From Candidatus Kaiserbacteria bacterium (GTDB taxonomy: Bacteria > Patescibacteriota > Minisyncoccia > Phycocordibacterales > UBA2100), in the NCBI GenBank assembly GCA_017134395.1, contig CP070993.1:320210-384209 (forward strand): 64,000 nt of DNA, written 5' to 3'. The notes beneath the pieces were generated by a model, which saw nothing but the letters and a program-made list of their open reading frames with translations, ran no database searches and was not told the origin of the DNA. Positions 1,726 through 60,123 of the stretch are shown one piece after another (within the stretch, counting starts at the first letter, position 1; each line of letters opens with the position of its first letter). The position numbers and the translations under genes are program-made.

Positions 1726-1744
1726 AAAGCACTCTGTGAAAACC

Positions 1745-1795
1745 AAAACGAATGCCTCATCCGCCAGCTGGCGGATGAGGCATTCGTTTTGTGGC
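1745..1795. terminator. bidirectional rho-independent terminator between the convergent pilin and transketolase genes
   Basis: A perfect 19-bp stem (aacgaatgcctcatccgcc / ggcggatgaggcattcgtt) with a 4-nt loop. An A-run lies upstream and a T-run downstream (cgttttgtgg), so it can function on both strands. Confidence 0.75.
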
Positions 1796-6199: not shown

Positions 6200-6227
6200 A
6201 TATATGGACATCGGATGTCCATATATA
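6200..6227. repeat. REP-like hairpin palindrome, family A copy 1 (tatatggacat-cgg-atgtccatata)
   Basis: 11-bp perfect arms around a 3-nt centre. It is intergenic, between the divergent gap and RAYT genes. The centre (cgg vs ccg) is the reverse complement of copies 2 and 3, so this copy is inverted relative to them. Confidence 0.6.
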
Positions 6228-6293
6228 GGATTACCTTTCATGTTAGTACCGTTTAGTATTATTACACGTCATCCTCTTTTTCCTTCTCCTCTA

Positions 6294-6334
6294 TCCCCAC
6301 ATATATGGACATCCGATGTCCATATATGTGGGGA
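6294..6334. repeat. REP-like hairpin palindrome, family A copy 2 (41-nt perfect palindrome ccccacatatatggacat-ccg-atgtccatatatgtgggg)
   Basis: 19-bp perfect arms. It sits 18 nt upstream of the RAYT-like gene start. Confidence 0.65.
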
Positions 6335-6351
6335 TACGTTAAGATAGAATT

Positions 6352-7002
6352 ATGTTCTTCCATGTACTGAATCGTGGTGTAGAAAAACGACCTATAGTCC
6401 ACGATGATATTGACCGAATACGTTTTGTTCATGACCTTTTCATATTCAACAACAAGTGCTCTGTAGACCCAAATCATAGGCTTAAAGAAAATCCATTTGG
6501 TGACCAAGGTAGAGACCCTTTAGTGCATATACATGCGTGGTGTCTTATGGATAATCACTATCACCTACTTCTCTCTCCTGTCGATAATGATGTCGCAAAT
6601 ATTTCGCTTTTCATGAAAAAGTTAAATATGGGGTATGCAAAGTACTTTAATGAAAAATATGAGCGCTCGGGCTACCTGTGGCAAGGAAAGTACAAAAAGA
6701 TAGAAATAGAAAGAGATGCACATTTTCTCTATATCCCTTTCTATATCCATCTTAACCCGCTTGACTACACCCATCCAAATTGGCGCAACGGATCTATTAA
6801 GAATCTAAAAAAGATGTTGTCTGATTTATCTTCATATCGCTGGAGTAGTTACCTAGATTATATGGGCACCAAAAATTTTCCTTCTGTTATAGAAGAACAA
6901 ACATTACATGAAGTGCTCGGTTCGTCATCTAGTCAGAAAAAGCAAATTGCTCAAATTGTTACACAAGCAGATGTAGCTACTCTCTCGAACAACTTCGAAT
7001 AA
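6352..7002 (+). CDS. HuH-family Y1 transposase, REP-associated tyrosine transposase (RAYT) / IS200-like TnpA family
   Basis: 216 aa. The N-terminus is FHVLNRG.EKRPIV, the HuH motif is CLMDNHYHLLLSP, and the C-terminal region is GYAKYFNEKYERSGYLWQGKYK (catalytic-Tyr WQ..Y region). It is flanked on both sides by the family-A palindromes. Confidence 0.65.
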   Translation: MFFHVLNRGVEKRPIVHDDIDRIRFVHDLFIFNNKCSVDPNHRLKENPFGDQGRDPLVHIHAWCLMDNHYHLLLSPVDNDVANISLFMKKLNMGYAKYFNEKYERSGYLWQGKYKKIEIERDAHFLYIPFYIHLNPLDYTHPNWRNGSIKNLKKMLSDLSSYRWSSYLDYMGTKNFPSVIEEQTLHEVLGSSSSQKKQIAQIVTQADVATLSNNFE

Positions 7003-7052: not shown

Positions 7053-7091
7053 ACACAAATATATGGACATCCGATGTCCATATATTTGTGT
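7053..7091. repeat. REP-like hairpin palindrome, family A copy 3 (acacaaatatatggacat-ccg-atgtccatatatttgtgt)
   Basis: 18-bp perfect arms. The outer arm sequence differs from copy 2 (acacaa vs ccccac) but is compensated on the other arm, which indicates selection for hairpin structure. It lies between the convergent RAYT and giant gene. Confidence 0.65.
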
Positions 7092-7095
7092 TGGG

Positions 7096-7135
7096 TTAAT
7101 TAAATTTAATTTAATTTAATCTTATCTTATCTTAT
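7096..7135. repeat. pentanucleotide tandem repeats (TTAAT/TAAAT)x5 followed by (CTTAT)x3
   Basis: ttaat taaat ttaat ttaat ttaat cttat cttat cttat. The last CTTAT unit overlaps the stop codon (7132..7134) and last codon of the giant gene. Confidence 0.7.
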
Positions 7136-19100: not shown

Positions 19101-22100
19101 TATATTCTGAATCTGGTGTTGCTTGAATACCTACACTCCCATTAGAATCAATAATAAACGGAGTTGTATCGCTTGCTGAATCGTTCACAACAAAACTGTT
19201 GCCCGTACCTGTGTTAGTGATGGAGAGTACTTCAGTACCATCTGCTGCTATGTCAGTTGAAGCATCGAGTGCAAGCGCATCCTTAAATTCAGTGAAATCG
19301 AGCGTGTCGGCAGTAACATCAGCACCGTCAACGGTGGTGGTTGAGACAACACCTGAGCTGTTGGTGGTGAGGATGCCTCCGGTGAGTGCGCTAAGAGTAA
19401 GTGCTGATTCAAGTATGGTGTTGCCGGTGATACGTGCGGTGCCTGAGACATCTAGTTTGTATGATGGCGCAGCGTTTCCAAGACCTAACTGCCCAGTATT
19501 ATCAATATAAACAGTCTGAGTGTTATTGGAACCTCCTCCACGCAACTCTAACTTATGTGAATTAGAGTTCTCACCGATGTATGTATTTTGGTTACTAAAA
19601 TAGATATGAGAATTATCGGGACTCAACCCTATAGAGCCAGCAACATCGAGCGCATACGATGGGGTGCTGTCGCCAATCCCCACATTTCCACTACTCACAT
19701 CAGCAAACAATGCGGGAGTACTTGAGGTACCGACGCGTAGGTCGCCCCAGACGTCGAGTGCTGATGCGGGTGAAGTAGTGCCGATACCGACGTTGCCACC
19801 ATCTGCTATCACAATTCCGTCGCCAGCACCTTCACCCCATACATTGAGGTAACCAAAATTAGAGGCTTCGTTGTATCCGATAACAAGGGCGTCATCTGCA
19901 ATTGCGCTTTGTCCTATTGCTATGAAGTCAACATCGTTATCATCTGCATTAGTATTAAAGAAGCTTGCTATGTTTACCGTTCCACTTGAATCAGCTTCTA
20001 CATGCAATTTGGAGTTTGGCGAGGTGGTGCCAATACCGACGTTGCCTCCGGTTGATGGATTGATGTAAGTTTCTGCTCCTTCCAACCATAAATTTTTGTA
20101 AGAAGATGCGCCACGATCGTATGCCTGAACAAATCCATATCCGTTATATCCTAATTCGACTCCAGCACCGGAGGCTGTCATTGACGGCGCTCCAGTTGCA
20201 CGAAGATTTCCGGATACATCTAGAGTTGCCACAGGCGACGCCACCCCCACCCCAACTCTATTCGTTGAACTATCAATCACGAGAGTGTTTGCATCAAAGT
20301 TGAGATCAGCAGAGTTGGTGTCGAGGTCGAAGGTGGTGGTGGCGTCTACGGTGAGTGCATCTTTGAATTCAGTGAAGTCGAGTGTGTCTGCGTCGATGAC
20401 ACTTGCGTCGATAGTGGTGGTTGAGACGACACCTGAGCTGTTGGTGGTGAGGATGCCTCCGGTGAGTGCGCTGAGAGTAAGTGCTGATTCAAGTATGGTG
20501 TTGCCGGTGATACGTGCGGTGCCTGCTACGGTGAGTTTTTCAGCGGGAGTGGTGGTGCCGATACCGACGTTACCTAAATTATTTATCACAATCCCTTTAC
20601 TTGAACCATCAAAACCGTCTCTAGTAATTTTTAAGTTGTCTTCAGAATAATCAACCCCAATGAAACCGTATCTGGGTGTGCCATCAGCATCAGATGCCAT
20701 TCTGATGAATGAGTTGTCTGTATCATTTGTACTCAACCCAATATCTGCAATTCCGGTTGTTGAAAGTACATCTAATTTCCTACCTGGACTACCTGTACCA
20801 ATCCCAACCCTGTTCGTTGAACTGTCAATGTACAAGGTGTTTGAGTCGAAGTTTAAGTCAGCGGAGTTGGTGTCGAGATCGAAAGTTGTGGTGGTATCTA
20901 CCACTAGTGAGTCTGAGAGCTGTGCGAAGTTGAGTGAGTCGTTAACGATGTCTAAGGTGACGGCTGCTGATTCAGTACCAGAATTAGAAACCGTAAAGAA
21001 AGCGTTGCCTGCGTCTGCAAGCGTTGCGAGATAATTACCTGTTGTGTGTGTACCGAGTGTGATGAGGTTGTTAAGTGTGGTGGTTCCTGTGCCTCCGTTG
21101 GTTACAGGAAGAACTCCAGTGACCTCAGTGGTGAGATCAACCGAGGTACCAAGTGTTGTTTCGAGTGATCCTGAATTGAGAGTAAGTCCAGTACCAGTGA
21201 AGTCGGTGATTGTTTCTGAGTTGGTGCGGAATCCACCAGAGGCTCGTGTGACACCAACAACGTCGAGTGGATATGATGGAGTTACTCCTATACCAAAATT
21301 ACCAGATGAATCGAAACGAGCCACCTCTGTATTTGACGTACTAAACAATATCGCGCCAGCTTCCCTGTTGATAATAGCTAGATTTAGTCCGTTTCCTTGA
21401 ATAAGGCTACCGTCAGCAGCCAAAGTGCCTGTTGTTCCGTTAGTAAGTTTTAATTCGGGAAATGAAGTTGCATTGATGTGTAGCCCTGTTCCTCCACCAG
21501 CAAGAGCAGGTGCCGCGGTACCAATACCCACATTTCCTGCTATTTCTATGTCCCCATCACTTTGTGCTACCAACAATTCTGTACCTGCAGAATTTTCCAA
21601 ACGGATTGAACCACCACTTACTATTGGCCTGATATTTGAAAGCCACGCTATGTCAGCACCGTCATTCAATTGTAAATCTCCATCGATATGCAACTTCGAT
21701 CCAGGTGTTGTGGTACCAATACCGACGTTGCCTGCTCCATTAATGATCATTTGTGTATCGAGAGTTCCGTTCGAAGTGGAAAATCGCAAATCGCCGTACT
21801 CTGCACCAGATTCATTTTCAGAACTTATACGAGCACCTATATAATTTTCAGGACTTGCATCATTATTATCCCAATTCTGAAAATCTAAACGTCCATAATC
21901 TGCTCCCGCACTTTGCTTTGCGCCTCCAATGGTAACGGTGCGTTGTACATCAGCACTTCCCCCTCTATCTGCAACTATGTTCCCACCGTAAATATGTAGT
22001 TTCTCACTTGGTGAAGTAGTACCGATACCGATGTTGCCATCCACACCAACAGTCAGTACGCGACTACCACTGAAATCATCAGCTACAAAAATAGGTGCAG

Positions 22101-25680: not shown

Positions 25681-25717
25681 AGTACCAATTCAGACATGGG
25701 ATGTCTGAATTGGTACT
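25681..25717. repeat. 37-nt perfect palindrome agtaccaattcagacat-ggg-atgtctgaattggtact (family A-related core GACAT-NNN-ATGTC)
   Basis: 17-bp perfect arms. It lies between the stub-paralog stop and the giant gene start. Confidence 0.6.
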
Positions 25718-25769: not shown

Positions 25770-25797
25770 ATATATGGACATCGGATGTTCATATATG
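25770..25797. repeat. REP-like hairpin palindrome, family A copy 4 (tatatggacat-cgg-atgttcatata). It doubles as the likely intrinsic terminator of the upstream minus-strand gene.
   Basis: One arm mismatch relative to copies 1-3. On the minus-strand transcript the hairpin is followed by UUUUUGAUGG. It lies 55 nt downstream of the stop of gene 25852..26904. Confidence 0.55.
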
Positions 25798-25851
25798 TGA
25801 ATTTTTTAGGAAACGTAAGAGGAGAAAGCTAAAAAAGCTATTATTGTAGTT

Positions 25852-50603: not shown

Positions 50604-51754
50604 TCTTTAAAATATAATTCTTTTGTTTTTTGGAACATTGCTGTTTTGGTGAATGTGCTTGCGACATACTGTTTGAGATTACTGCCAAGCTCTTTACGTT
50701 TCTCACTATCAGTAACGAGTATCTCTAGCTCATTTACGAATAGTTCTTCATTATTCACTGGAGTTAGTACCCCCCTATCTTCACCGAGTATTTCTGGAAT
50801 ACCCCCAACTTCCGACGCAACTACCGCTAATCCTACTGAGCCTGCTTCAAGTAGTGTGTAGGGCAATCCTTCTTTGAGAGAAGGTAGCGTGAAGATATCA
50901 AGTGCTTTGAGGTACTTGCTTGCATTCTCGTCAAACCCTAGCCAATACACGGCATCTTGAAGGTTATGCCTCCGCGTTTCCTTTTCTAATGCATCTTTTA
51001 ATTCCCCATCACCAAAATGAATATATATGAAGTTTGGATTGTTTTCTTTTAATTGAGAAAGGATCGGTAAGAACTCGATGAGCCCTTTATTTTTTGTGAG
51101 TTCTGCAATACTTCCAATTACACATGTATTTTCAAGTGGAATTCCAATTCGAGAAGAAATGATTTTGCGTGCCTCTTCTTGTGAAAAGTACTCGACAGCG
51201 TCTACCCCATTATAAATCCTTACTACCTTATTCTTAACACCGAACCACTTGCTCACTTCGTGTAGCTCTTTATCTGATACGACAATAACTTTGTGAGAAA
51301 GTAAGAACGTAAACCATGTAATAAACTTAATAGTAATTCTCTGCCATCGGGGGCGAGGTTCCATGTGTGGCAGACCGTGTGTCGTATAGATAATTCGTGG
51401 ACACCCTGCAATACGGGCTGCTAAAGCCCCTAAGGCACCTATTTTAGAGCTATTGAGATGCACTATATCTGGTGACCACTTGCGAAATAAACGTATTAAT
51501 TCAAAAAAGACTTTAGTATCGGAAAAAAAGTGGACATCGCGATTAAGGCTTTTGATATGTATTATGCGTGCTCCTGCCTCCTGCAGAATACGGTCAAACA
51601 TGCTGCTATCCACGAAATTATTTTTTCCGTGTGCGACTATAATTTCGCAGCCCTCTTTTGCACTCATAGATGCGAGGTCGGCTACATATTTTTGGGCGCC
51701 GCCAAAATCCGATTTTGTGATGACATAGAGTATTTTCTTTTTTACAGTATTCAT
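50600..51754 (-). CDS. GT4-family glycosyltransferase (Glycos_transf_1)
   Basis: 384 aa. The N-terminus ILYVITKSDFGGAQKYVADLA and the C-terminal region FTLPSLKEGLPYTLLEAGSVGLAVVASEVGGIPEIL match the GT4 E..G..LLEA.A.G.PVV pattern. It is convergent with the upstream GT2 and their stops overlap. Confidence 0.8.
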   Translation of the reverse strand: MNTVKKKILYVITKSDFGGAQKYVADLASMSAKEGCEIIVAHGKNNFVDSSMFDRILQEAGARIIHIKSLNRDVHFFSDTKVFFELIRLFRKWSPDIVHLNSSKIGALGALAARIAGCPRIIYTTHGLPHMEPRPRWQRITIKFITWFTFLLSHKVIVVSDKELHEVSKWFGVKNKVVRIYNGVDAVEYFSQEEARKIISSRIGIPLENTCVIGSIAELTKNKGLIEFLPILSQLKENNPNFIYIHFGDGELKDALEKETRRHNLQDAVYWLGFDENASKYLKALDIFTLPSLKEGLPYTLLEAGSVGLAVVASEVGGIPEILGEDRGVLTPVNNEELFVNELEILVTDSEKRKELGSNLKQYVASTFTKTAMFQKTKELYFKD

Positions 51755-51756
51755 AC

Positions 51757-53097
51757 TTATTCTTTTACTTCAATCACCTCGTATCCTTCTACTACAAGCT
51801 TTCGCGGTCGGATAAGTAGTACACCGACTATAGCAAATAAGAGCATCGCTCCCAATGCGATATACCAATACAGAGCACTTCCTCCGGTTTGTACAGGCTC
51901 GCTAAGAATAATAGCTGCTGCTTGGCTTGAACTGGCGTTTTGAGTTATTTCCTTTTCTGGTTCAACGCTCTCTTGTACATCCTGTTTTGGAGTATACGTT
52001 TCAATGCTAACAAGCGGATATCCAATAACGGTAGCACCAGATGATCCGCCTGTTTGAGAAGCTACACCTACTGATGCATCAGTAGGTGTAGCTTCTTGCA
52101 TAGTTTCAGTGAGTGCAGTAGTTGTAGCTAGAGACACCGCGACATCTTCATTTTGTGTCGCACTGTCGAGTGCCACTTCGTCATTAGGATATTTTAAGAA
52201 CGCGCGCTGTGTTCCTGATAATCGTGAGAGTTTTGTTATCTGGGTTGGAAAACGAACCTCTGCCCCACTTTGGATGTAGGTGCCTTCTGGGATAATAAAA
52301 TATTGACTATCAGTAGTGAGCCGCCAGTTTGATACATTTAAAGGCGTGGTGCTGTGATTCGCAATAGCTACCCATTCTCCTTTCTCAGAAATGACAAGCG
52401 ACGCATCAAGTGGTAGTACTGTCACCGTAATAGTCTTGGTGTCACTCAGCGCACCTAGTTCAAGCAAAATATGCACGATGTATGTCCCTTCGTACATGAA
52501 ACTATGCCCAACGTCTCTTCCATTTGCTGTGGCGCCATCGCCAAATGCCCACGAAACGTTGCCGTCCTCAACAACTGCACCGGTTGCATCGTAACTCTCA
52601 AACTCAAAAGGAGTAAACGAACCGGCAACTGTGGTGAGGGTTTCTGGTACACGAATATATACGTCCTCGGGTGGCTGGATAGTGACACTTTCGTACTGGA
52701 ATTGTGTCACATTGGTAATTGTTGTTCCGCTTGCCTGACTTTGTGTTGTTGTAGTAGTGCTAGATGTGTCAGCTGATTCATCGACCGTAATATGGTCTTT
52801 TATTTTTTCGTACGAAGACGAACCCGGCTCACCAATACCTGAAACATTACTAATGTCTTCAATAGTAGCAAAGAGGCCGTTGTTCGTTCGATAGTCGATA
52901 ATATCTTGAGCCCGTGACGGACCAATTCCATCGAGTGTATCGAGAAGCTCACTGTCCGCAGTATTAATATTTATAAGTTCACCGTCACCGTGAGCGGCAA
53001 AAAGAAGTACAGGCGAAAAAGTATAAAGCGAGACACAGAATAATAATGCTGATGTGAGTAGTGCCCGGAGCACTACGTTAGTCGAAGTAATAGCCAT
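51757..53097 (-). CDS. ComEA-like helix-hairpin-helix DNA-binding protein fused to PKD-like and lamin-tail-like (LTD) domains, with a C-terminal TM anchor
   Basis: 446 aa. There is an N-terminal signal/TM. INTADSELLDTLDGIGPSRAQDIIDYRTNNGLFATIEDISNVSGIG is the ComEA HhH motif. NVSWAFGDGATANGRDVGHSFMYEGTYIV is PKD-like. GEWVAIANHSTTPLNVSNWRL is LTD-like. The C-terminal helix is LYWYIALGAMLLFAIVGVLLI. Confidence 0.6.
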   Translation of the reverse strand: MAITSTNVVLRALLTSALLFCVSLYTFSPVLLFAAHGDGELININTADSELLDTLDGIGPSRAQDIIDYRTNNGLFATIEDISNVSGIGEPGSSSYEKIKDHITVDESADTSSTTTTTQSQASGTTITNVTQFQYESVTIQPPEDVYIRVPETLTTVAGSFTPFEFESYDATGAVVEDGNVSWAFGDGATANGRDVGHSFMYEGTYIVHILLELGALSDTKTITVTVLPLDASLVISEKGEWVAIANHSTTPLNVSNWRLTTDSQYFIIPEGTYIQSGAEVRFPTQITKLSRLSGTQRAFLKYPNDEVALDSATQNEDVAVSLATTTALTETMQEATPTDASVGVASQTGGSSGATVIGYPLVSIETYTPKQDVQESVEPEKEITQNASSSQAAAIILSEPVQTGGSALYWYIALGAMLLFAIVGVLLIRPRKLVVEGYEVIEVKE

Positions 53098-53770
53098 AAA
53101 ATTCTTTTTTAACTTTTTCTATCTCGCTTTTGTCAACCTCGCTTCTTTCGCGTGCGATTGCTTTTGTTGTTTCTTTCGCAAAACGAAGGTATGTTTCTAG
53201 TGAATTAAATTGTTCTAGTATTATATCCTTGCTGCACAAAGCACTTTTATTCTTTTTACCAGTATATTCAAGCCAACTTGACCTAACCAACTTAGTATTC
53301 GAAGCACTAAGTTGGTGTACACGGTTGTTGAGATTTACATATGCGCTCATACGCAACAAATCTGCATCGTTTGATATATGCCGTGCTTTAAACTTCCCTT
53401 GAAATAATACTCCTGTTCTTTCGTACTTCTCGTTGAAATACCGAGTGTACCCTGTTCCAAACTTCTGCATAAATTTTGATATTCCGCCATCGCTTATTTG
53501 CTTAAGAAGAAAATGAAAATGATTCGTGTTAAAGCAATAGCATACAATATCAACCAATGGATCGTCGATTTTAGTAACCGGACTACTTAAATTTATTTTA
53601 TTCTTGTAATAGTGACTATATATACTCCCTATTGATGATGCGGTGTTAAATGCAATAAGGCTTTGAACGAGCCTGTTGGCGTCTTCTGCGTCTAGAACAA
53701 TCTTGCGTTTATCAGTACCGCGATTATATACATGATAATACTCATCGTTTGCTAGTTGTGTTTTTCGCAT
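53078..53770 (-). CDS. HuH-family Y1 transposase, RAYT/IS200-like (second paralog)
   Basis: 230 aa. YYHVYNRGTDKRKIV, the HuH motif CYCFNTNHFHFLL, and GYTRYFNEKYERTGVLFQGKFK. These are clearly paralogous to the ORF at 6352..7002, with identical YFNEKYER.G..QGK.K spacing. Confidence 0.65.
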   Translation of the reverse strand: MRKTQLANDEYYHVYNRGTDKRKIVLDAEDANRLVQSLIAFNTASSIGSIYSHYYKNKINLSSPVTKIDDPLVDIVCYCFNTNHFHFLLKQISDGGISKFMQKFGTGYTRYFNEKYERTGVLFQGKFKARHISNDADLLRMSAYVNLNNRVHQLSASNTKLVRSSWLEYTGKKNKSALCSKDIILEQFNSLETYLRFAKETTKAIARERSEVDKSEIEKVKKEFYGYYFD

Positions 53771-53833
53771 ACTTTTGGAATTCAGCGTGCCCGGAGTACT
53801 GCTTTTTAAGTAACCGGACTACTTAATTTATGG

Positions 53834-55570
53834 TTACTCTTCTACATTAAGTAGTTTTTCGAGGGACTCTTTAGAAACCTCGCTGTTGGATTCTTCTTTT
53901 GCCGATTCTTTCTTTATAGGTGTCGGTGAAGGTTTCGTGTCTTGCTGCTCTTTTTGGGGAGCCACTGTACCCTTATTTCCCTTTTCTGGCTCCTTATTTT
54001 TAACAGATTTGGTAATTTCTGCCAGTGCGTCACGAAGTGCTGAATTCCCATTCTTGGGTGTTACCTCTTTAGATTTAGTGATCTTCTTCGCTTTTTTTCC
54101 ACCAGCTGGTTGATTATTGTCTTTAACCACTGCATCCTTTTTTTCTACGGATTGTTGTGTTGGAGTATTTCCGTTGTTCGCATCGTTGCCATTGCCATTG
54201 CCGTCCCCGTTTTTCTTTTTTTTCTTTGGCCACTGACTGGCTGGTTTTTCAAACCCTCCTGGAGCAATCTTAGAATCAACCTCGCCTATCATTTTTTCAA
54301 CCTCTGCGCGTGGCTTGCTGTAGACAGTTCGTGAATTCTCAATAATTTGCCCAACAAAATTAGAAGGTGCATTCTCCACCGGTGGAAGTGTTTTTGCAGA
54401 GAATGGTTTAGACCCAACACCATCTATCATGAGTGTGAGATAAATTTGAGCAAATCCAAGATTTACCAAGTCTTCCGCATAAAACGTGGGCTCAAATACT
54501 GTTTTCAGCACTTCTGCATCAAATGGACCGACGCGGAATGTAATAATACTTCCTACGTTTCCAAAAATTGCCGCTCGGATATCTTCATCTACCTGCTCTA
54601 TATACTGATGAGCAATGGTAAGCGACAGTTTGTATTTACGAGCTTCAGAGAGTATGTTCGCAAACGATGCGTTAACCACTGACTGAAATTCATCAACGTA
54701 TAAGTAAAACGGGGGTAACTGAGCAAGTGTTTCTGCTGAGTCTTCGGCACGGCTCATAGCAGCAAGGTAGATTTTTGTGGTAAGCATGCTTCCTAAAAGA
54801 TCTGCATTTTGTTCGCCCATGCGCCCTTTCGATAAGTTCACAATAAAAATCTTTTGGGTATCCATCATTTCTCGTATATCAAAGGTAGATTTCGGTTGCG
54901 CAATAATGTTTCGCACCAATGGATTTGACGCAAATTGCCCTATTTTGTTTTGAATTGCCGGCGTTGCTTCTTGAGTATACCGATCGGTGTAGGCAGCAAA
55001 TTCTTCTGTCCAAAAACGTTTTACGATTGGGTCGGTAACATACTCAACAACTTTTTTGCGAAATTCCTTGTTGATGAGCATGCGGTTTACATCAATAAGC
55101 GTCGTGCCTGGATACTCAAGCAAGGCTAAAAGTACATTTTGCAAAATATACTCCATACGAGCAGACCACGCATCTACCCAAATACGTTGAAACGAACTCA
55201 TAAGCCCTGCAACGACAAGGTGTCGTTTGTCGTACCCAACGTCTTCCATGACGTTGAATCCTATAGGGTATTCAATATCAAACGGTGCAAAATACACAAC
55301 GTCCTTAATACGTGACTCTGGTACGTACTCTAAGAGTTTTTCTGCTGTGCTTCCGTGCGGATCGATAAAACAAACTCCTTCGCCATTTTGTATGTCTTGA
55401 ATCGCCATGTTTTCTAACAAGGTCGATTTACCCATACCAGTCTTCCCAATCACATACGTGTGGCGCATTCGGTCAAGCGCTCGAATACCAAATGGAATCT
55501 GCTTGTTTCGTGAATCAGTCGCACCAAAATAGACTACGCGTTGCGGATCGTATTCGTAGTTATCATCCAT
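53834..55570 (-). CDS. VirD4/TraG/TraD-like (T4SS coupling-protein-type, TrwB_AAD_bind-like) P-loop ATPase with a long K/E/N-rich disordered C-terminal tail
   Basis: Preferred start is the ATG at 55570 (MDDNYEYDPQRVVYFG...). Walker A is VIGKTGMGKSTLL, Walker B is FYLYVDEFQSV, and TIAHQ is also present. The C-terminal ~170 aa are low complexity (KKKKKNGDGNGNGND..., K/E-rich). No N-terminal TM segments were seen. The longer track ORF (start 55735) runs through a GC hairpin and is rejected. Confidence 0.55.
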   Translation of the reverse strand: MDDNYEYDPQRVVYFGATDSRNKQIPFGIRALDRMRHTYVIGKTGMGKSTLLENMAIQDIQNGEGVCFIDPHGSTAEKLLEYVPESRIKDVVYFAPFDIEYPIGFNVMEDVGYDKRHLVVAGLMSSFQRIWVDAWSARMEYILQNVLLALLEYPGTTLIDVNRMLINKEFRKKVVEYVTDPIVKRFWTEEFAAYTDRYTQEATPAIQNKIGQFASNPLVRNIIAQPKSTFDIREMMDTQKIFIVNLSKGRMGEQNADLLGSMLTTKIYLAAMSRAEDSAETLAQLPPFYLYVDEFQSVVNASFANILSEARKYKLSLTIAHQYIEQVDEDIRAAIFGNVGSIITFRVGPFDAEVLKTVFEPTFYAEDLVNLGFAQIYLTLMIDGVGSKPFSAKTLPPVENAPSNFVGQIIENSRTVYSKPRAEVEKMIGEVDSKIAPGGFEKPASQWPKKKKKNGDGNGNGNDANNGNTPTQQSVEKKDAVVKDNNQPAGGKKAKKITKSKEVTPKNGNSALRDALAEITKSVKNKEPEKGNKGTVAPQKEQQDTKPSPTPIKKESAKEESNSEVSKESLEKLLNVEE

Positions 55571-55627
55571 AACGATAAGTATATCGTACTTCCTTTGTGC
55601 ATATATAGTATTAATCCCCGCCGTGCT

Positions 55628-55665
55628 ACGCACGGCGGGGACTTTTGTGGTAGTTTTCACGTATC
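55628..55665. terminator. GC-rich hairpin (ccccgccgtgc-tac-gcacggcgggg) followed by a T-rich tract. It is a candidate intrinsic terminator or attenuator between two minus-strand genes.
   Basis: 11-bp perfect GC stem with a 3-nt loop. On the plus strand it is followed by acttttgtggtagttttc. Both neighbouring genes are on the minus strand, where the U-tract is weak, so the strand assignment is uncertain. Confidence 0.35.
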
Positions 55666-55895
55666 GAGATGATGCAATACTGCACCAAGAAGCACCGCTG
55701 CGGCAAACAGCACAATTACCAGAAGCAGCGCCCATTTCTCCAAAAAACCATTTAGTCTTGAGAAATCATGGCTCGCTTCCCTTATGCTTTCTCTGATTTG
55801 ATACTCTTCGTCTAACCTCATCACTGGGCACCTCCGTGCTTAAATTAGATATCTATCTGAAAACTCTACCTTAGTTCAAGCTAACACAGCACTTA

Positions 55896-57155
55896 TTATT
55901 TTGCTAACTCAAGTCCTCCTCGTGTGTAGTAGTTGCTCGGTGCCCACAGCATCCAGCTGTGTAGCCCAGCATCGTATGCTGCTTGAATTTGTGCTCGCAC
56001 TTCTACCGGTCCGTAATCCCCTCCGTAGTCAAAATCTTGCAACCAGGGCCGTAGCACATTCGGATCGCGTGCCGGCTTACTGTAGATAGCAGGAGTGCTT
56101 GTACCCATACGCTCATACGCAAATGAGCCAATTTTTGTCGTCGTTGCCGTTACCCGCTCCACTGCCCTATCCATAGAATATTTTACTACTCCGTATACTT
56201 CATCGTTCGGGTTCGCGTATCCATTAAACCCTCGTGGGTAATGAGATGGGTATACCATTGGTGCAATGTAATCGAAATATGGTGTTGCGCGTTCAAGTAC
56301 CTGCCCAATAGTGAGGTCATCTGAGTTTGTGGTCGTCATTCCAAACAAGTCGGCTGAGAGCACTGGTATATTTCCAAAAGCATCTGGTTTTCGTACTTTT
56401 TGAGAGATATATCTGAAAAACTTCTCGAGCTCTACCTGTCGTTGCGAATAGTCGGAGTGATTAAACTGCACATCACTCATTGGACCATCTGAAGGATACC
56501 GAACGTAATCGAAGTTCAATTCATCAAATCCAATTGCATACGATTCGTTTGCAATGTCTACAATGTAATCCCAGAAAGGTTTTGCTCCAACATCTACAAA
56601 TGCTAACCCTTTGTGGTCTTGCCAAGGAATTCCTTTACTTTTGCTTTGAACTGCGAGCTCGGGATAGACACTCGTGTAGAGTGGGTCTTGGAAAACAGTG
56701 ATGCGTCCAATCAAGTAAATGTCGTCTTCATGAAGTTCCTCAAGGAATTCCTTCATGTCGGATACCTTACAGCCAGTTCCACCAAGGTCTTCAACACCTT
56801 CACCTCGAGGGAAACTTACCGTGCCGGTGAAGTCTTTAATATCAATAATAATAGAGTTCACTTCTGTTTCTGCAACAAGTGATGTAATCTCCTCGCGAAA
56901 AGTATTACTCGAAGCAGCGCACTGGCTCATATATACTGAACGTACAAATGGCGGAACAGGCACGTGCTTTACAGGTGGTGGTCCTTGCGAAACATGTTGT
57001 GGTTGAGTGGTATTTTTTGCCTGTGCGTTTGGAATATAGGTAGTAACACCCTTACCAAGTACCGGTGCACCGAAGATGATGACTACTCCGATAGCTAAAA
57101 CGACTACAAGAGTAGCTACCCACAATATGGTGATGCGGGCAATTCCTTTATTCAT
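55896..57155 (-). CDS. putative glycoside hydrolase-like TIM-barrel protein (DUF4015/GHL-type), N-terminally membrane anchored
   Basis: About 420 aa. The N-terminal TM is ITILWVATLVVVLAIGVVIIF. The region VRSVYMSQCAASSNTFREEITSLVAETEVNSIIIDIKDFTG resembles the 'putative glycosyl hydrolase domain' proteins common in small genomes. The start is ambiguous among the GTG at 57188 and the ATGs at 57176 and 57155. Confidence 0.4.
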   Translation of the reverse strand: MNKGIARITILWVATLVVVLAIGVVIIFGAPVLGKGVTTYIPNAQAKNTTQPQHVSQGPPPVKHVPVPPFVRSVYMSQCAASSNTFREEITSLVAETEVNSIIIDIKDFTGTVSFPRGEGVEDLGGTGCKVSDMKEFLEELHEDDIYLIGRITVFQDPLYTSVYPELAVQSKSKGIPWQDHKGLAFVDVGAKPFWDYIVDIANESYAIGFDELNFDYVRYPSDGPMSDVQFNHSDYSQRQVELEKFFRYISQKVRKPDAFGNIPVLSADLFGMTTTNSDDLTIGQVLERATPYFDYIAPMVYPSHYPRGFNGYANPNDEVYGVVKYSMDRAVERVTATTTKIGSFAYERMGTSTPAIYSKPARDPNVLRPWLQDFDYGGDYGPVEVRAQIQAAYDAGLHSWMLWAPSNYYTRGGLELAK

Positions 57156-57387
57156 GTGCCACTGAGATATCTGCATCAGGCATAGCACTCTGTTTGTAAG
57201 ATGAAAATTCTTCTCCGTCTGCAGCGCGGGTTTTAGTACGAGTTTCAGTGTACATACGGAATGCGAGTGCAGCGATACCAGCTCCCAGTATGAGGAACAT
57301 TATATTTTTCCATGAGCTCGGGAAACCTAAAAATGGCAACAATGCCACAATGATTCCAAGTGTAACAATAGTCTTTGTATGCTTCAT
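57148..57387 (-). CDS. small hypothetical membrane protein (two predicted TM helices)
   Basis: 79 aa with TIVTLGIIVALLPFLGF and IMFLILGAGIAALAF. It overlaps the downstream gene start. Confidence 0.3.
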   Translation of the reverse strand: MKHTKTIVTLGIIVALLPFLGFPSSWKNIMFLILGAGIAALAFRMYTETRTKTRAADGEEFSSYKQSAMPDADISVAHE

Positions 57388-57408
57388 ATCGCGCCATTAT
57401 AGCATGTC

Positions 57409-58128
57409 CTAGAAAGACGCAACTATGACGACAAATTCCCCTTTTTGTTTCTCTGGAGTCTCTGTAATGAGTGTCTTTAGTTCTTCTCCAGTACCACAAA
57501 GTACTTCTTCATATATTTTTGTGAGTTCACGGGCGATACAAATTTTTCTGTCTCCTACATGTTCGGTAAGTTCATCAAGTAGTTTTACAATTCGGTGAGT
57601 TGACTCGTATAACACGACAGTGCGGTTTGTTTCTGCGATTTCTTTCAGTTGCGTTTGCCTACCTTTTTTGTGTGGTAAAAACCCTAAAAACGTAAACTCG
57701 CTTGCTGATACTCCAGTTATTGAAAGTGCTGCGGTAACAGCTGAGGCCCCTGGAATAACTTCAATAGTAAAGTTGTGTTCACGAACTCGTGCAACGAGTT
57801 GTGAACCAGGGTCAGAGACTGTTGGGGTGCCTGCGTCTGAAACATACGCCACACGCTCTCCATTTTCGAGATGAGAAAGTACTTCGTCTATTTTTATAGA
57901 CTCAGTGCGGGCGTTTAGGCTCTTAAGATGAGTATTAATTTCATACTTCTCGAACAAGCGTCGAGTGACCCGTGTGTCTTCACAAAAAACGACATCTGCT
58001 TCACCAAGAATGCGAATGGCGCGAAGGGTGATGTCTTCAAGGTTGCCTATGGGTGTCGCTACTATATAGAGTGTTCCGTTTTCCATTGGAGAAACAATAC
58101 CGTGATAGCGAGACTTTGCATAGCCCAT
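57409..58128 (-). CDS. rsmI: 16S rRNA (cytidine1402-2'-O)-methyltransferase RsmI
   Basis: GTLYIVATPIGNLEDITLRAIRILGEADVVFCEDTRVTRRL is the RsmI N-terminal signature. The start is ambiguous, with ATGs at 58128 and 58086. The track start at 58239 adds a non-conserved extension. Confidence 0.75.
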   Translation of the reverse strand: MGYAKSRYHGIVSPMENGTLYIVATPIGNLEDITLRAIRILGEADVVFCEDTRVTRRLFEKYEINTHLKSLNARTESIKIDEVLSHLENGERVAYVSDAGTPTVSDPGSQLVARVREHNFTIEVIPGASAVTAALSITGVSASEFTFLGFLPHKKGRQTQLKEIAETNRTVVLYESTHRIVKLLDELTEHVGDRKICIARELTKIYEEVLCGTGEELKTLITETPEKQKGEFVVIVASF

Positions 58129-58178
58129 ACGTACAAAACATCCAATTAATTGGATGTTTTGTATTTGATGATGAGCGA

Positions 58179-58208
58179 TAACCGGACTACTACTTAGTAG
58201 TCCGGTTA
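58179..58208. repeat. hairpin palindrome taaccggactact-actt-agtagtccggtta (family B motif, shared with two sites near the second RAYT)
   Basis: 13-bp perfect arms with a 4-nt loop. It is nested with a second inverted pair, tacttagta/tactaagta (58191..58215). A further 12-nt palindrome, ccaattaattgg, lies at 58143..58154. Confidence 0.55.
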
Positions 58209-58220
58209 CTAAGTAGTAAT

Positions 58221-58250
58221 GGTTTAAAAAAGGTCGCACTTGCGTGCGAC
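58221..58250 (-). terminator. rho-independent terminator for the minus-strand gene ending at 58314
   Basis: On the minus strand the sequence is gggtcgcacgcaagtgcgacc followed by tttttt. The stem is 8 bp with a 4-nt loop. Confidence 0.65.
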
Positions 58251-58313
58251 CCTTAATGTACTCTTAACTCCCTGAGAGGCTTCTGCCGTTACGCATGACT
58301 TTCTGTCATCTAC

Positions 58314-58598
58314 TTACCCACGACGTGGGTTTGGAAGTGGAATGCGATAGTGAGCACCAGAAGGTGCAGCTACTGCTGTCACCCCAGTCGATTCAACGAT
58401 TGAACCGTACGTGGTGGCAGTTCTTGGGAAATGCAGCTTTCCTGTTTGGGTGGTGTAGTACGCATCCACAACCAACGGGGAAATGAGCGTATACAACACG
58501 AACCCAAGAGCGCATACCAACGCTCCTCCTGCGATAGCACTGAAAAACAATGACCCGCCGGAGATAACATCTAAACCATCTCTGAAACTTTGTCGCAT
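58314..58598 (-). CDS. hypothetical small membrane protein
   Basis: 94 aa. One hydrophobic helix (LFFSAIAGGALVCALGFVLYTLI). It is followed by a good terminator, which supports expression. Confidence 0.35.
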   Translation of the reverse strand: MRQSFRDGLDVISGGSLFFSAIAGGALVCALGFVLYTLISPLVVDAYYTTQTGKLHFPRTATTYGSIVESTGVTAVAAPSGAHYRIPLPNPRRG

Positions 58599-58683
58599 CT
58601 TATAACCTCTCTCAAAAGTTGAACAGGCTATATTAAAACATAGTGTACACCCTGCGTCAATAGTATATTTAAAGCTTTCAAAA

Positions 58684-58713
58684 TGTTGATTCCCCTACCT
58701 CGCGTGTTATATT
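58684..58713 (+). promoter_or_regulatory. sigma70-like promoter of the MurC/Mpl-family ligase gene. The transcript is possibly leaderless or has a very short leader.
   Basis: TTGATT, then 16 nt, then TATATT. The -10 hexamer ends about 6 nt before the ATG at 58720, and no SD is visible. Confidence 0.35.
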
Positions 58714-58719
58714 CAGCCA

Positions 58720-60123
58720 ATGAAGAAAGCTCATATTATTGGTGTTGCTGGAGTTGCTATGAGCGCAACGGCTAAATTACTCATGGATGCTGGCTGGGAC
58801 GTCAGTGGTTCTGATGACAACTTCTACCCTCCTGCTTCTGACTATGTCGAAAAACTTGGCTTTACCTTCCACCATGGATATCGAGCGTCAAACATTCCAG
58901 AAGATGTTGATCTTGTCATTATTGGCCGCAATGCAAAGCTGACACCAGAAACAAATGCAGAAGTAGAACATGCTCACGAAATAGGTGTCGACATAAAATC
59001 CTTCCCTGAGGTAATCGCAGAACTAACCGCCGACGCGCATCGCATTATCGTAGCTGGTAGTTACGGCAAATCTACCGTTACAAGCATCGTGTCGTGGGCA
59101 TTGGTACAAGCCGAAAAAGATCCGAGCTATTTTATCGGTGCCTACCCGCTGGATATGGAATTTACTTCGCACAAGGGAGCGGGTGAAGTGGCAATAATTG
59201 AAGGAGACGAGTACCCTACCGCACACTGGGATGACAGTTCTAAGTTTCTGCATTTTAACGCCGATGATGTACTTCTCACTGCAGTTGAACACGACCATGT
59301 GAATGTGTTTCCAACCTACAAAGAATACGTACAACCTTTTATTGAGCTGCTGCGAAACATGCCAGAACACGGTCTTCTTGTTGCCTGTATTGATAACAAA
59401 GGCGTAGCGGAGGTTTTAGAACACGCACCGCAATACATTACCTACGGACTTAGTGACGAAGCACTGTGGCACGCTACAAATATTTCCTACGGCGAAACCA
59501 CTACCTTTGACCTTACGCATGACGGTGAAGTAGTCGCCAAACTACAAACGCAACTATTAGGTAGCCACAATGTACAAAATATAGTTGGCGCTGCCGCTCT
59601 TCTTCTTACACGTGAATTAGTAACAGTCGACGAACTACAATCGGCAATTGCATCGTTTAGTGGGGTGCGGAGGCGTTTAAACAAAATCTCTACGACCTCT
59701 CGCATACCAACATACGAAGGGTTTGGCTCTTCGTATGAAAAAGCTCGCGCTGCGATTGATGCGATAGCGTTACACTATCCAGACAAAAAAATAGTTACTC
59801 TCTTTGAACCACATACGTTCAGCTGGCGAAACCGCGATGCATTAGAATGGTATGACACTGTTTTTAAAGACATGAAAGAGGTGCTGGTATTCCACCCAGC
59901 TGAACAAGGATCTGATACACATAAGCAGCTCACACAAAACGAAATAGTTGGTCGTATTAAAGCGTCTGGTATATCGGCTATCCCAGTACAAGATGCAAAC
60001 AGTGTGTACGAAAAACTAACTGGAACTCTTACTGAAGATACCGTTCTACTAGTACTTACTTCGGGCAACCTAGATGGTGTACTCGATACTCTTCCTGAAT
60101 GGCTCGATAACACGTTTACTTAA
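58720..60123 (+). CDS. MurC/Mpl-family UDP-N-acetylmuramate ligase. It shows features of Mpl (UDP-N-acetylmuramate:L-Ala-gamma-D-Glu-meso-DAP ligase).
   Basis: 467 aa. HIIGVAGVAMSATAKLLMDAGWDVSGSDDNFYPPASDYVEKLGFTFHHGYRASNIPEDVDLVIIGRNA parallels the Mpl N-terminus (GSD.N.YPPMS..LE..GI....GY.AS.L....DLVIIGNA). The ATP-binding P-loop is GSYGKSTVTS. Confidence 0.7.
   Translation: MKKAHIIGVAGVAMSATAKLLMDAGWDVSGSDDNFYPPASDYVEKLGFTFHHGYRASNIPEDVDLVIIGRNAKLTPETNAEVEHAHEIGVDIKSFPEVIAELTADAHRIIVAGSYGKSTVTSIVSWALVQAEKDPSYFIGAYPLDMEFTSHKGAGEVAIIEGDEYPTAHWDDSSKFLHFNADDVLLTAVEHDHVNVFPTYKEYVQPFIELLRNMPEHGLLVACIDNKGVAEVLEHAPQYITYGLSDEALWHATNISYGETTTFDLTHDGEVVAKLQTQLLGSHNVQNIVGAAALLLTRELVTVDELQSAIASFSGVRRRLNKISTTSRIPTYEGFGSSYEKARAAIDAIALHYPDKKIVTLFEPHTFSWRNRDALEWYDTVFKDMKEVLVFHPAEQGSDTHKQLTQNEIVGRIKASGISAIPVQDANSVYEKLTGTLTEDTVLLVLTSGNLDGVLDTLPEWLDNTFT

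What the first reader, a model, noticed from the sequence alone, without database searches (positions are those of the whole stretch)
53078..53830. Second RAYT paralog with a different associated motif: a 22-nt direct repeat bracketing its 5' end, one copy inside the CDS
agtaaccggactacttaa(a)ttta occurs at 53572..53593, inside the RAYT CDS and encoding ..KINLSSPVTK.., and again at 53809..53830, 40 nt upstream of its start. A hairpin version, taaccggactact-actt-agtagtccggtta, lies at 58179..58208. So RAYT #2 appears linked to its own repeat family (B), distinct from the GGACATCCGATGTCC family (A) around RAYT #1. That is two RAYT/REP pairs in one genome. A REP-like copy embedded in the transposase coding sequence is unusual. 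It may reflect a past insertion or duplication that rebuilt the 5' end of the gene.
Basis: seen in the sequence. Interest (0 to 1): 0.5.

Follow-up and report, generated by a model that had tools for sequence, protein, structure and literature searches.

The report
Transposase gene carrying its own hairpins
The repeat is real and belongs to a larger pattern: this REP-associated transposase-like gene, like most of its relatives in tiny-genome bacteria, carries copies of its own palindromic DNA hairpin before, after and twice in frame inside its coding sequence.

Summary
An exact 18-mer lies at 53573-53590, inside the RAYT-like CDS (53078-53770, minus strand), and again at 53809-53826, upstream of it. 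A doublet of the same motif lies at 58179-58218.

The motif is itself a hairpin (TTAAGTAG-TCCGG-TTACTTAA). There is also a decayed copy upstream and a second in-CDS site.

In 127 distinct homologous loci, mostly Patescibacteria, a locus-specific palindrome occupies four fixed places:
- about 28 nt before the ATG (82% of loci);
- CDS nt ~190 (57%);
- CDS nt ~470 (55%);
- just after the stop codon (72%).

It never occupies the control CDS zones. Copies within a locus are near-identical, while loci differ. Related orthologs show in-place flips and whole-set switches. The peptide LSSPVTK is therefore a translated hairpin in a disordered loop. It is not an insert that rebuilt the 5' end.

In-frame REPs inside RAYT genes were already reported for another subclass (Quentin et al. 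2018). This is therefore a new variant of a known kind. How the copies are kept alike, and whether they have a function, is inferred, not shown.

The parts
53078..53770 (-). RAYT-like Y1 HUH gene (RAYT #2), 230 aa. HUH motif is H84-F-H86, the putative catalytic residue is Y144, and the tail motif is S164-S165-W166.
   Evidence: ORF. Pfam Y1_Tnp above its cutoff. Invariant H84, H86 and Y144 in alignments. AlphaFold model with pLDDT 85. Foldseek hits to 2vjv and 4er8.
53806..53826 (-). U1: upstream copy of the B-type hairpin. In gene sense it reads TTAAGTAG-TCCGG-TTACTTAA.
   Evidence: It is a weak hairpin, -2.9 kcal/mol. It is present in L002 but absent as a clean ~20-nt gap in L001 and L082.
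53784..53803 (-). U2: decayed upstream copy of the C-type hairpin (GTAC-TCCGG-GCAC), 17 nt before the ATG.
   Evidence: GTGCCCGGAGYACT is found only at 53787-53800 and 53061-53074. U2 is present in L001 and L082 and absent as a 16-nt gap in L002. It no longer folds.
53571..53590 (-). S1: in-frame B-type hairpin inside the CDS, encoding L61-S-S-P-V-T-K67.
   Evidence: The orthologs carry the C-type hairpin at the same codons. It coincides with the only segment of the model with pLDDT below 50, residues 58-66.
53286..53316 (-). S2: second in-frame palindrome, ACCAACTTAGT-gcttcgaat-ACTAAGTTGGT, encoding H152-Q-L-S-A-S-N-T-K-L-V162 just after the catalytic Tyr helix. The centre has decayed; the stem is intact.
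   Evidence: It folds at -9.2 kcal/mol, z = -6.4. L001 and L082 have the intact C-type form GTGC-CCGGA-GCAC here.
53058..53076 (-). DN: intact C-type 'double-foot' hairpin GTAGTGC-TCCGG-GCACTAC, starting 1 nt after the stop codon.
   Evidence: It folds at -6.4 kcal/mol, z = -3.6. It is conserved in L001, L002 and L082.
58179..58218 (.). The only dispersed copy in the window: two overlapping inverted B-type units (58179-58208 and 58188-58218). It sits between a terminator-like hairpin (58232-58251) and the likely start of rsmI.
   Evidence: It folds at -13.3 kcal/mol.
6352..7002 (+). RAYT #1, a within-window control. Family A hairpins flank it (6200-6226, 6292-6336, 7053-7091; one more at 25770-25799). 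None lies inside its CDS.

Best explanation
RAYT #2 and its hairpins form a REPtron-like unit: a domesticated, single-strand-DNA-cutting Y1 HUH enzyme together with the short palindrome it is paired with. In this protein family the paired palindrome sits at four inherited positions. These are about 28 nt before the ATG, at CDS nt ~190 (the disordered loop before the HUH strand), at CDS nt ~470 (the linker after the catalytic Tyr helix), and directly after the stop codon. The two internal copies are always read in the same frame, so they are translated as L-[GS]-x-x-x-[ST]-K.

In the window's lineage the hairpin at S1 was overwritten in place by the B variant that also sits upstream. The older C variant survives after the stop codon and, decayed, at U2 and S2.

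Shown: the positions, the in-frame reading, the within-locus identity with between-locus divergence, and the in-place flips and switches between orthologs.

Inferred: the copies are kept alike by block replacement at existing hairpin sites. Either the RAYT cuts and re-joins at the conserved feet of its own hairpins, acting mostly in cis, or replication switches template between neighbouring palindromes. On this view the peptide is a tolerated passenger, not the selected feature.
For: - Positions. In 127 distinct loci a cognate palindrome is found at UP in 82%, S1 in 57%, S2 in 55% and DN in 72%. It is found in 0% of three control CDS zones. 99 of 127 loci have at least one internal copy (first set; second set, drawn from metagenome contigs and sharing a few loci with the first).
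- Placement is tight. Centres lie at -28, +190 and +470 from the ATG, and +15 past the end of the ORF.
- Identity. The 21-nt core has median within-locus identity of 0.90-0.95 for UP against the other three sites, versus 0.40-0.48 between loci. S1-S2 and S2-DN are weaker (within-locus median 0.50; identity >=0.85 in about 40% of loci versus 2% between loci).
- Paralogs in one MAG each carry their own type.
- Frame. 70 of 71 internal copies with a CTT[AG]G foot read CTT as Leu.
- Internal copies have stems as long as the flanking ones (median 10-11 bp); perfect stems 67-70% (internal) versus 70-78% (flanking).
- Loop orientation is random, and there is no G.T-over-A.C bias on the sense strand. 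This points to a DNA-level palindrome.
- Ortholog pairs. L095/L132 show an exact in-place inversion at S2. L035/L062 and L009/L024 have switched hairpin type at all four sites while the feet and flanks stay the same.
- In the window and its orthologs, U1 and U2 are clean 16-20-nt presence/absence differences, and S1 is B-type in the window but C-type in L001, L002 and L082.
- S1 maps to the only segment of the model with pLDDT below 50.
- Region lengths are nearly the same with and without a hairpin.
- Cognate copies also occur outside the gene, 24 in 596 kb against 3 for control cores.
Against: - No biochemistry exists for this family. Transposition of REPs by any RAYT has not, to my knowledge, been shown in vivo; this rests on my own knowledge, not on a search.
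- In this window the set is mixed and partly decayed. The two B copies are weak hairpins (-2.9 and -1.6 kcal/mol) and U2 no longer folds.
- Strict confinement to two internal sites could equally mean the copies are selected for a function.
- Internal copies are missing in about 45% of loci at each site.
- Only one dispersed copy lies in the 64-kb window, and the genome-wide count could not be made.
- The hairpin caller uses thresholds, and some true copies were scored negative.
Confidence: 0.7

Rival explanations
1. Self-regulation. The four hairpins are kept because the RAYT binds them in its own gene (exposed single-stranded DNA, or the mRNA) and so throttles its own transcription or translation. 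Positions are fixed because they are selected.
For: There are no cognate copies in control CDS zones, while S1 and S2 are 55-57% occupied. Internal stems are about as intact as the flanking ones. The upstream copy sits between -17 and -40, where it could cover the leader or ribosome binding site.
Against: Internal copies are absent in about 45% of loci at each site, so they are dispensable. Loop orientation is random and there is no wobble bias on the sense strand, which argues against an mRNA element read in one orientation. No sigma-70-like promoter was detectable near U1 or U2. No Y1 enzyme is known to me to bind RNA hairpins.
Confidence: 0.2
2. Plain selfish in-frame insertion, as with Rickettsia palindromic elements and other intragenic REPs. 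Hairpins land anywhere, and only those in tolerant loops survive. The near-identity of copies simply reflects recent insertions.
For: Intragenic REPs in unrelated genes are documented (PMC3733652). Cognate copies also sit inside other long ORFs in L007, L046, L048 and L065. S1 lies in a disordered loop.
Against: There are no cognate copies in three control CDS zones across 127 loci. Loop length shows almost no gain where a hairpin is present: 28 against 25 aa, and 15 against 15 aa. The same two codon positions are used across proteins only 45-55% identical, with entirely different hairpin cores.
Confidence: 0.1
3. One reading: a past insertion or segmental duplication rebuilt the 5' end of the gene, leaving a direct repeat that brackets it.
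For: U1 and S1 are direct repeats bracketing the 5' UTR and codons 1-60. S1 was indeed replaced in this lineage.
Against: Only 18-22 nt are repeated. Codons 1-47 are colinear with L002 and nearly identical to it. The phylogenetic breakpoint in the gene lies at CDS nt 329-351, not at S1. The same arrangement is found in most homologs.
Confidence: 0.04
4. Protein-level cause: LSxPxTK and QLSxxxTKLV are functional peptide motifs, and the DNA similarity follows from them.
For: Both segments are recognisable in the family consensus.
Against: The same sequences occur in non-coding DNA before the ATG and after the stop. In-place flips change the middle residues freely, as at S2 in L095/L132. The two peptides co-vary within each protein but differ between proteins: at least 6 of 7 residues identical in 47% of proteins, against 2.3% between proteins.
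Confidence: 0.02

Closest known systems
REPtrons of TnpA_REP subclass 2.4 with REPs inserted inside the tnpAREP gene (Quentin, Siguier, Chandler, Fichant 2018, PMC6006769)
   Same: A RAYT gene flanked by its cognate REPs, with further REP copies inside its own coding sequence that keep the reading frame. 'Double-foot' palindromes are present (the window's DN copy is GTAG...CTAC). The inserts are predicted to be peripheral loops.
   Different: [quoted passage not shown] Here there are two fixed sites, one before HuH and one after Y, with little length change. The motifs differ: WQ and YIxNNP there, FQ and YVNLNN here. The taxa differ: Cyanobacteria and Bacteroidetes there, Patescibacteria here. 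Four-site concerted turnover was not mentioned in the sections read.
Classical RAYT/REP(IN) systems (E. coli TnpA_REP, PDB 4er8; Pseudomonas groups 2 and 3)
   Same: A low-copy Y1 HUH gene with its own specific flanking palindromes. Paralogs in one genome each have their own REP family. Gene position is syntenic between relatives.
   Different: The canonical 5' GT[AG]G foot is lacking in the family consensus ACTTGG...CCAAGT. Dispersal is low, about 0.4 copies per 10 kb. The score is below the NCBIfam REP_Tyr_transpos cutoff. Internal copies are present.
TnpA_Y1 subclass 2.1 / Bertels group 1 / TIRYT
   Same: By motif this is the nearest class: NH[YF]H, FQ in place of WQ, Y[IV]HLN-like, an SS tail motif, and about 230-240 aa (Table 1, compared).
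   Different: That subclass was reported to have no associated REPs, whereas this family plainly has them. The assignment rests on motifs only; their HMMs were not available.
Rickettsia palindromic elements and other intragenic REPs (Di Nocera et al. 2013, PMC3733652)
   Same: Short palindromic repeats translated in frame inside functional genes, presumably in tolerant loops.
   Different: Those hit many unrelated genes at scattered positions. Here the host gene is the element's own enzyme and the positions are fixed.
IS200/IS605 TnpA elements (IS608, ISDra2)
   Same: The same fold, and subterminal hairpins at both ends of the gene.
   Different: The Y---Q signature is absent and there is no tnpB. 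The two copies in the window are not near-identical (33% identity). The hairpins at the two ends are the same sequence and in random relative orientation.

Membership tests
RAYT / TnpA_REP (class 2 TnpA_Y1) | Y1 HUH fold with an HuH motif and a catalytic Tyr | tested here: met
   Pfam Y1_Tnp 30.2 bits against a cutoff of 23. H84, H86 and Y144 are invariant. Foldseek gives 4er8 at E 1.7e-5 (TMt 0.71) and 2vjv at E 9e-6.
RAYT / TnpA_REP (class 2 TnpA_Y1) | Class-2 signature Y---NP around the catalytic Tyr (PMC6006769) | tested here: inconclusive
   The window has Y144-V-N-L-N148-N149. The Asn is invariant, but Pro is replaced by N or D across the family.
RAYT / TnpA_REP (class 2 TnpA_Y1) | Curated NCBIfam equivalog REP_Tyr_transpos (NF047646) | tested here: not met
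   23.8 bits against a cutoff of 80. RAYT #1 scores 41.6 bits, also below the cutoff.
RAYT / TnpA_REP (class 2 TnpA_Y1) | Gene flanked by its own specific palindromes (REPtron) | tested here: met
   U1/U2 and DN in the window. UP is occupied in 82% and DN in 72% of 127 loci. Paralogs carry different types.
RAYT / TnpA_REP (class 2 TnpA_Y1) | The same palindrome dispersed in many copies across the genome | tested here: inconclusive
   One dispersed site in the 64-kb window. In homolog loci there are 24 copies in 596 kb against 3 for control cores. The source genome was not among the retrieved loci.
RAYT / TnpA_REP (class 2 TnpA_Y1) | Low copy number and stable (vertical) position | tested here: met
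   The neighbours are the same (TraG-like, ComEA-like, DUF4015, rsmI) in L001, and the flanks match in L002 and L082. The two RAYTs in the window are 33% identical.
RAYT / TnpA_REP (class 2 TnpA_Y1) | Canonical 5' GT[AG]G foot on the REP | tested here: inconclusive
   The window's DN copy is GTAG...CTAC. The family consensus is ACTTGGaNGT-cNg-ACNtCCAAGT, without GTAG.
TnpA_REP subclass 2.4 (REPs inserted in tnpAREP) | Motifs NH[IFV]H, WQ and YIxNNP | tested here: not met
   NHFH fits, but the W motif is FQ (L122-F-Q-G) and the Y motif is YVNLNN (compared, Table 1).
TnpA_REP subclass 2.4 (REPs inserted in tnpAREP) | [quoted passage not shown] | tested here: not met
   S1 (aa 61-67) precedes HuH (aa 84-86) and S2 (aa 152-162) follows Y144. 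The control zone between them has 0 of 127 cognate copies.
TnpA_Y1 subclass 2.1 (Bertels group 1, TIRYT) | NH[YF]H, FQ/W[EQ], Y[IV]HLNP, an SS tail, ~238 aa, and no REP | tested here: inconclusive
   The motifs and length fit apart from the final P. The 'no REP' property is contradicted here. The subclass HMMs were not available.
IS200/IS605 transposase (class 1) | Y---Q signature, several near-identical copies, and often a tnpB partner | tested here: not met
   The motif is YVNLN. The two window paralogs are 33% identical. The neighbours are TraG-like and ComEA-like genes.

The most novel reading that the evidence does not exclude
The RAYT actively rewrites its own gene. It recognises the four cognate hairpins, including the two translated ones, and flips or replaces them by cut-and-rejoin at the conserved feet. 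The gene would then serve as a protected master-copy store for the hairpin family in gene-dense genomes. Because S1 and S2 are in the same frame, it might also act as a self-limiting switch through in-frame excision of the catalytic core. If so, this would be a natural read-out of RAYT activity in vivo, something not yet available for any RAYT.
Probability: 0.15. Interest if true: 0.8.

Novelty: new variant of a known kind. Interest (0 to 1): 0.55.

Why it matters
What RAYTs do in cells, and how REP families stay matched to their enzyme, is still unsettled. This family offers a compact natural experiment. Each gene carries up to four copies of its partner hairpin at fixed coordinates, and two of them are visible even in protein sequence as co-varying heptapeptides. 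Related genomes show flips and whole-set switches.

That makes RAYT-hairpin co-evolution directly measurable from metagenomes, and it predicts substrates for biochemistry. It also shows that a RAYT class whose motifs resemble the 'REP-less' subclass 2.1 does have REPs. For annotation, conserved-looking motifs such as LGxPTSK in these proteins are translated palindromes, not functional protein motifs.

Tried and rejected
- **Hairpins as module boundaries for recombination.** The window, L001 and L002 do show mosaic ancestry. However, the best breakpoint is at CDS nt 329-351, between S1 and S2 and not at a hairpin (Fisher p 6e-11). Rejected.
- **Sense-strand RNA structure.** There is no excess of G.T over A.C mismatches, and loop orientation is random. 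Not supported.
- **Known RNA family.** An Rfam scan of 51000-60000 gave only a spurious sub-threshold miRNA hit on another palindrome.
- **Promoter or terminator role of U1/U2.** The consensus scan found no promoter and only two unrelated terminator-like sites. Uninformative.
- **Net insertion at S1/S2.** Region lengths barely differ.
- **PDB by sequence.** No hit. The fold search was needed instead.
- **Do RAYT #1-type genes also hold internal copies?** Only three such paralogs were present in the fetched loci. Not tested beyond the window, where RAYT #1 has none.
- **Extension to 150 representatives clustered at 50% identity.** Only 45 could be parsed. At least 6 of 7 residues matched between S1 and S2 in 16% of proteins, against 0.4% between proteins. 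Weak, and used only as a hint.
- **Close relatives in metagenomes.** Only one new one turned up (L082), and it is 99.5% identical to L001.
Full report
**1. The observation**

The 18-mer AGTAACCGGACTACTTAA occurs exactly twice in the window, at 53573-53590 and 53809-53826. None of 100 shuffles gave a match. The first copy lies inside the 230-aa ORF 53078-53770 (minus strand) and encodes N60-LSSPVTK67. The second lies in the 63-nt spacer upstream of that ORF. A palindromic version is at 58179-58208. It is really two overlapping inverted units, 58179-58208 and 58188-58218, and it folds well as single-stranded DNA (-13.3 kcal/mol, z = -5.9).

**2. The gene**

The ORF passes the Pfam Y1_Tnp threshold. 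It has the HUH histidines and an invariant Tyr144. Its model (pLDDT 85) matches IS608 TnpA and the E. coli RAYT 4er8. It scores below the NCBIfam RAYT equivalog cutoff and is 33% identical to RAYT #1 at 6352-7002. An identical protein is on record from a 687,746-bp Candidatus Kaiserbacteria contig. Three orthologous loci have the same neighbours or matching flanks: L001, L002 and L082, at about 81% amino-acid identity.

**3.

Read in gene sense, the motif is itself a hairpin: TTAAGTAG-TCCGG-TTACTTAA, here called type B. A sister variant with the same TCCGG loop, type C, occurs in three places:
- GTAGTGC-TCCGG-GCACTAC begins one nucleotide after the stop codon (53058-53076).
- A decayed copy lies 17 nt before the ATG (53784-53803).
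- Its position inside the CDS at 53286-53316 keeps an 11-bp stem but has an altered centre.

These are documented.

In the orthologs, the upstream spacer, CDS site 1, CDS site 2 and the post-stop position all carry B or C hairpins. The four loci differ by clean presence or absence of the upstream units. The window has U1 and U2, L001 and L082 have only U2, and L002 has only U1.

**4. The pattern is family-wide**

I fetched 79 homolog loci from genomes and 80 from metagenomes. After removing duplicates and truncated loci, 127 remained.

| Zone | Position (centre) | Loci with a cognate palindrome |
|---|---|---|
| UP | -28 from the ATG | 82% |
| S1 | +190 | 57% |
| S2 | +470 | 55% |
| DN | +15 after the ORF end | 72% |
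| Three control CDS zones | elsewhere in the CDS | 0% |

The palindrome is locus-specific, with a median stem of 10-11 bp and usually a 3-nt loop. Of the 127 loci, 99 have at least one internal copy and 31 have all four.

- The 21-nt cores are 0.90-0.95 identical (median) between UP and each other site within a locus, against 0.40-0.48 between loci. S1-S2 and S2-DN agree less often (about 40% of loci at >=0.85).
- Paralogs in the same MAG each carry their own type.
- The consensus is ACTTGGaNGT-cNg-ACNtCCAAGT.
- Internal copies with the CTT[AG]G foot are read with CTT as Leu in 70 of 71 cases. This produces the 'motifs' L-G/S-x-x-x-S/T-K at both sites.
- Accordingly, the two peptide segments co-vary within proteins. 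At least 6 of 7 residues match in 47% of proteins, against 2.3% between proteins.

**5. Nature of the constraint**

- Internal copies have stems as long as the flanking ones, and nearly as often perfect.
- Relative loop orientation among the four sites is close to random (16:10 and 22:11 for S1-S2 and S1-DN, near 1:1 otherwise). Stem mismatches show no preference for G.T on the sense strand. This points to a DNA palindrome usable on either strand. It does not point to a sense-RNA element.
- Site 1 coincides with the only segment of the model with pLDDT below 50 (residues 58-66). Site 2 lies in a lower-confidence linker after the Tyr helix.
- Loop lengths are nearly the same with and without a hairpin: 28 against 25 aa, and 15 against 15 aa. 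The sites are therefore overwritten or decay in place; they are not gained as net insertions.

**6. Dynamics**

Pairs of related orthologs show block events:
- an exact in-place inversion at S2 (L095/L132);
- single-centre loop flips (L100/L136);
- wholesale change of the hairpin core at all four sites while feet and flanking codons stay the same (L035/L062, L009/L024).

Cognate copies also occur outside the gene at low density, 24 in 596 kb against 3 for control cores. They are depleted from long ORFs compared with random positions (54% against 88%). Even so, some lie inside other genes.

**7. How it most likely works**

Shown: a RAYT-like gene with up to four fixed positions for its paired palindrome, two of them translated, evolving in concert.

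Inferred: positions are inherited and sequences are updated by block replacement at existing hairpin sites. One route is the enzyme cutting and re-joining at the conserved feet of its own hairpins, mainly in cis. The other is template switching between neighbouring palindromes during replication. A site that decays beyond recognition is no longer updated, as with U2 and the centre of S2 in this window.

I give this overall account 0.7. I cannot separate the enzyme-driven route from the replication-driven route. The main rival, at 0.2, is that the positions are kept by selection for self-regulation. Random in-frame insertion with survival in tolerant loops fits poorly with the zero counts in control zones and the lack of length gain.

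**8. Comparison with what is known**

Intragenic in-frame REPs are known from Rickettsia and other bacteria (PMC3733652). More to the point, Quentin et al. [quoted passage not shown] The present family differs from that subclass in several ways:
- motifs (FQ and YVNLNN here, closest to their REP-less subclass 2.1);
- site positions (before HuH and after Y);
- host phylum;
- the strict four-site, co-evolving arrangement.

I searched RAYT/REPIN papers and read these papers in part. I found no description of this arrangement. I therefore rate it a new variant of a known kind. It is not categorically new.

**9. Limits**

- In this window the set is mixed (types B and C) and partly decayed, and the B copies are weak hairpins.
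- Hairpin calling used fixed thresholds, and some true copies were scored negative, so occupancies are lower bounds.
- Some metagenome loci duplicate genome loci. These duplicates were removed for only.
- All mechanistic statements are inference.

Noticed in passing
window 52057-52096: A perfect 40-nt palindrome (17-bp arms, 6-nt centre) lies inside the ComEA-like CDS (51757-53097, minus strand), translated as QEATPTDASVGVASQ in a variable linker. The L001 ortholog has a diverged, imperfect version. The weak Rfam mir-4041 hit there is below threshold and spurious.
   Followed up: partly
window 53058-53097: The predicted ComEA-like ORF starts at the ATG at 53097, overlapping the RAYT 3' end by 20 nt. 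The post-stop hairpin would then be translated as part of its signal-peptide region (NVVLRAL). The same overlap is called in L001. A downstream GTG start is possible.
   Followed up: partly
window 53078-53770 compared with L001 and L002: The gene has mosaic ancestry. Upstream of CDS nt ~340 the window is closer to L002 (82.5% against 70%). Downstream of it, and in the ComEA-like gene, the window is closer to L001 (92% against 79%, and 89% against 72%). The breakpoint is not at a hairpin.
   Followed up: yes
window 58132-58163: A 13-bp-arm palindrome, TACAAAACATCCA-attaat-TGGATGTTTTGTA, lies just upstream of the likely rsmI start, next to the B-type doublet and a terminator-like hairpin at 58232-58251.
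   Followed up: no
window 7132-25044: A giant 5,970-aa ORF on the minus strand next to RAYT #1 contains dozens of copies of a G-N-V-G-I-G-T-coding repeat, which dominates the direct-repeat families in the window.
   Followed up: no
window 25681-25717 and 25770-25799: A 15-bp-arm palindrome unrelated to families A, B or C lies about 50 nt from a fourth family A copy. Both are just upstream of the giant ORF's start.
   Followed up: no
window 1744-1791: A 48-nt perfect palindrome (24-nt arms, no spacer), CAAAACGAATGCCTCATCCGCCAG / CTGGCGGATGAGGCATTCGTTTTG; context not examined.
   Followed up: no
L048 (+4858, +4884, +5538 from the RAYT start); L046 (-2931, -2908, -701, -591): Cognate hairpins of those loci also lie inside other long ORFs (482, 532 and 226 aa), sometimes as adjacent inverted pairs. 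Translated copies are therefore not limited to the RAYT gene.
   Followed up: partly
L069 about +662 to +745; L135 downstream copy: Half-hairpin units are tandemly repeated just after the stop codon: AAAACTTCTCAGTAAA repeated in L069, and CTTCCAAGTGCAT duplicated in L135 relative to L094. This suggests slippage at these sites.
   Followed up: no
L006 +764 to +783; L076, L086, L089: Several homolog loci use hairpin cores (TGGACATCCGATGTCCA) nearly identical to the window's family A core, the one that flanks RAYT #1. The two families in the window therefore belong to one broader palindrome superfamily with different feet.
   Followed up: no
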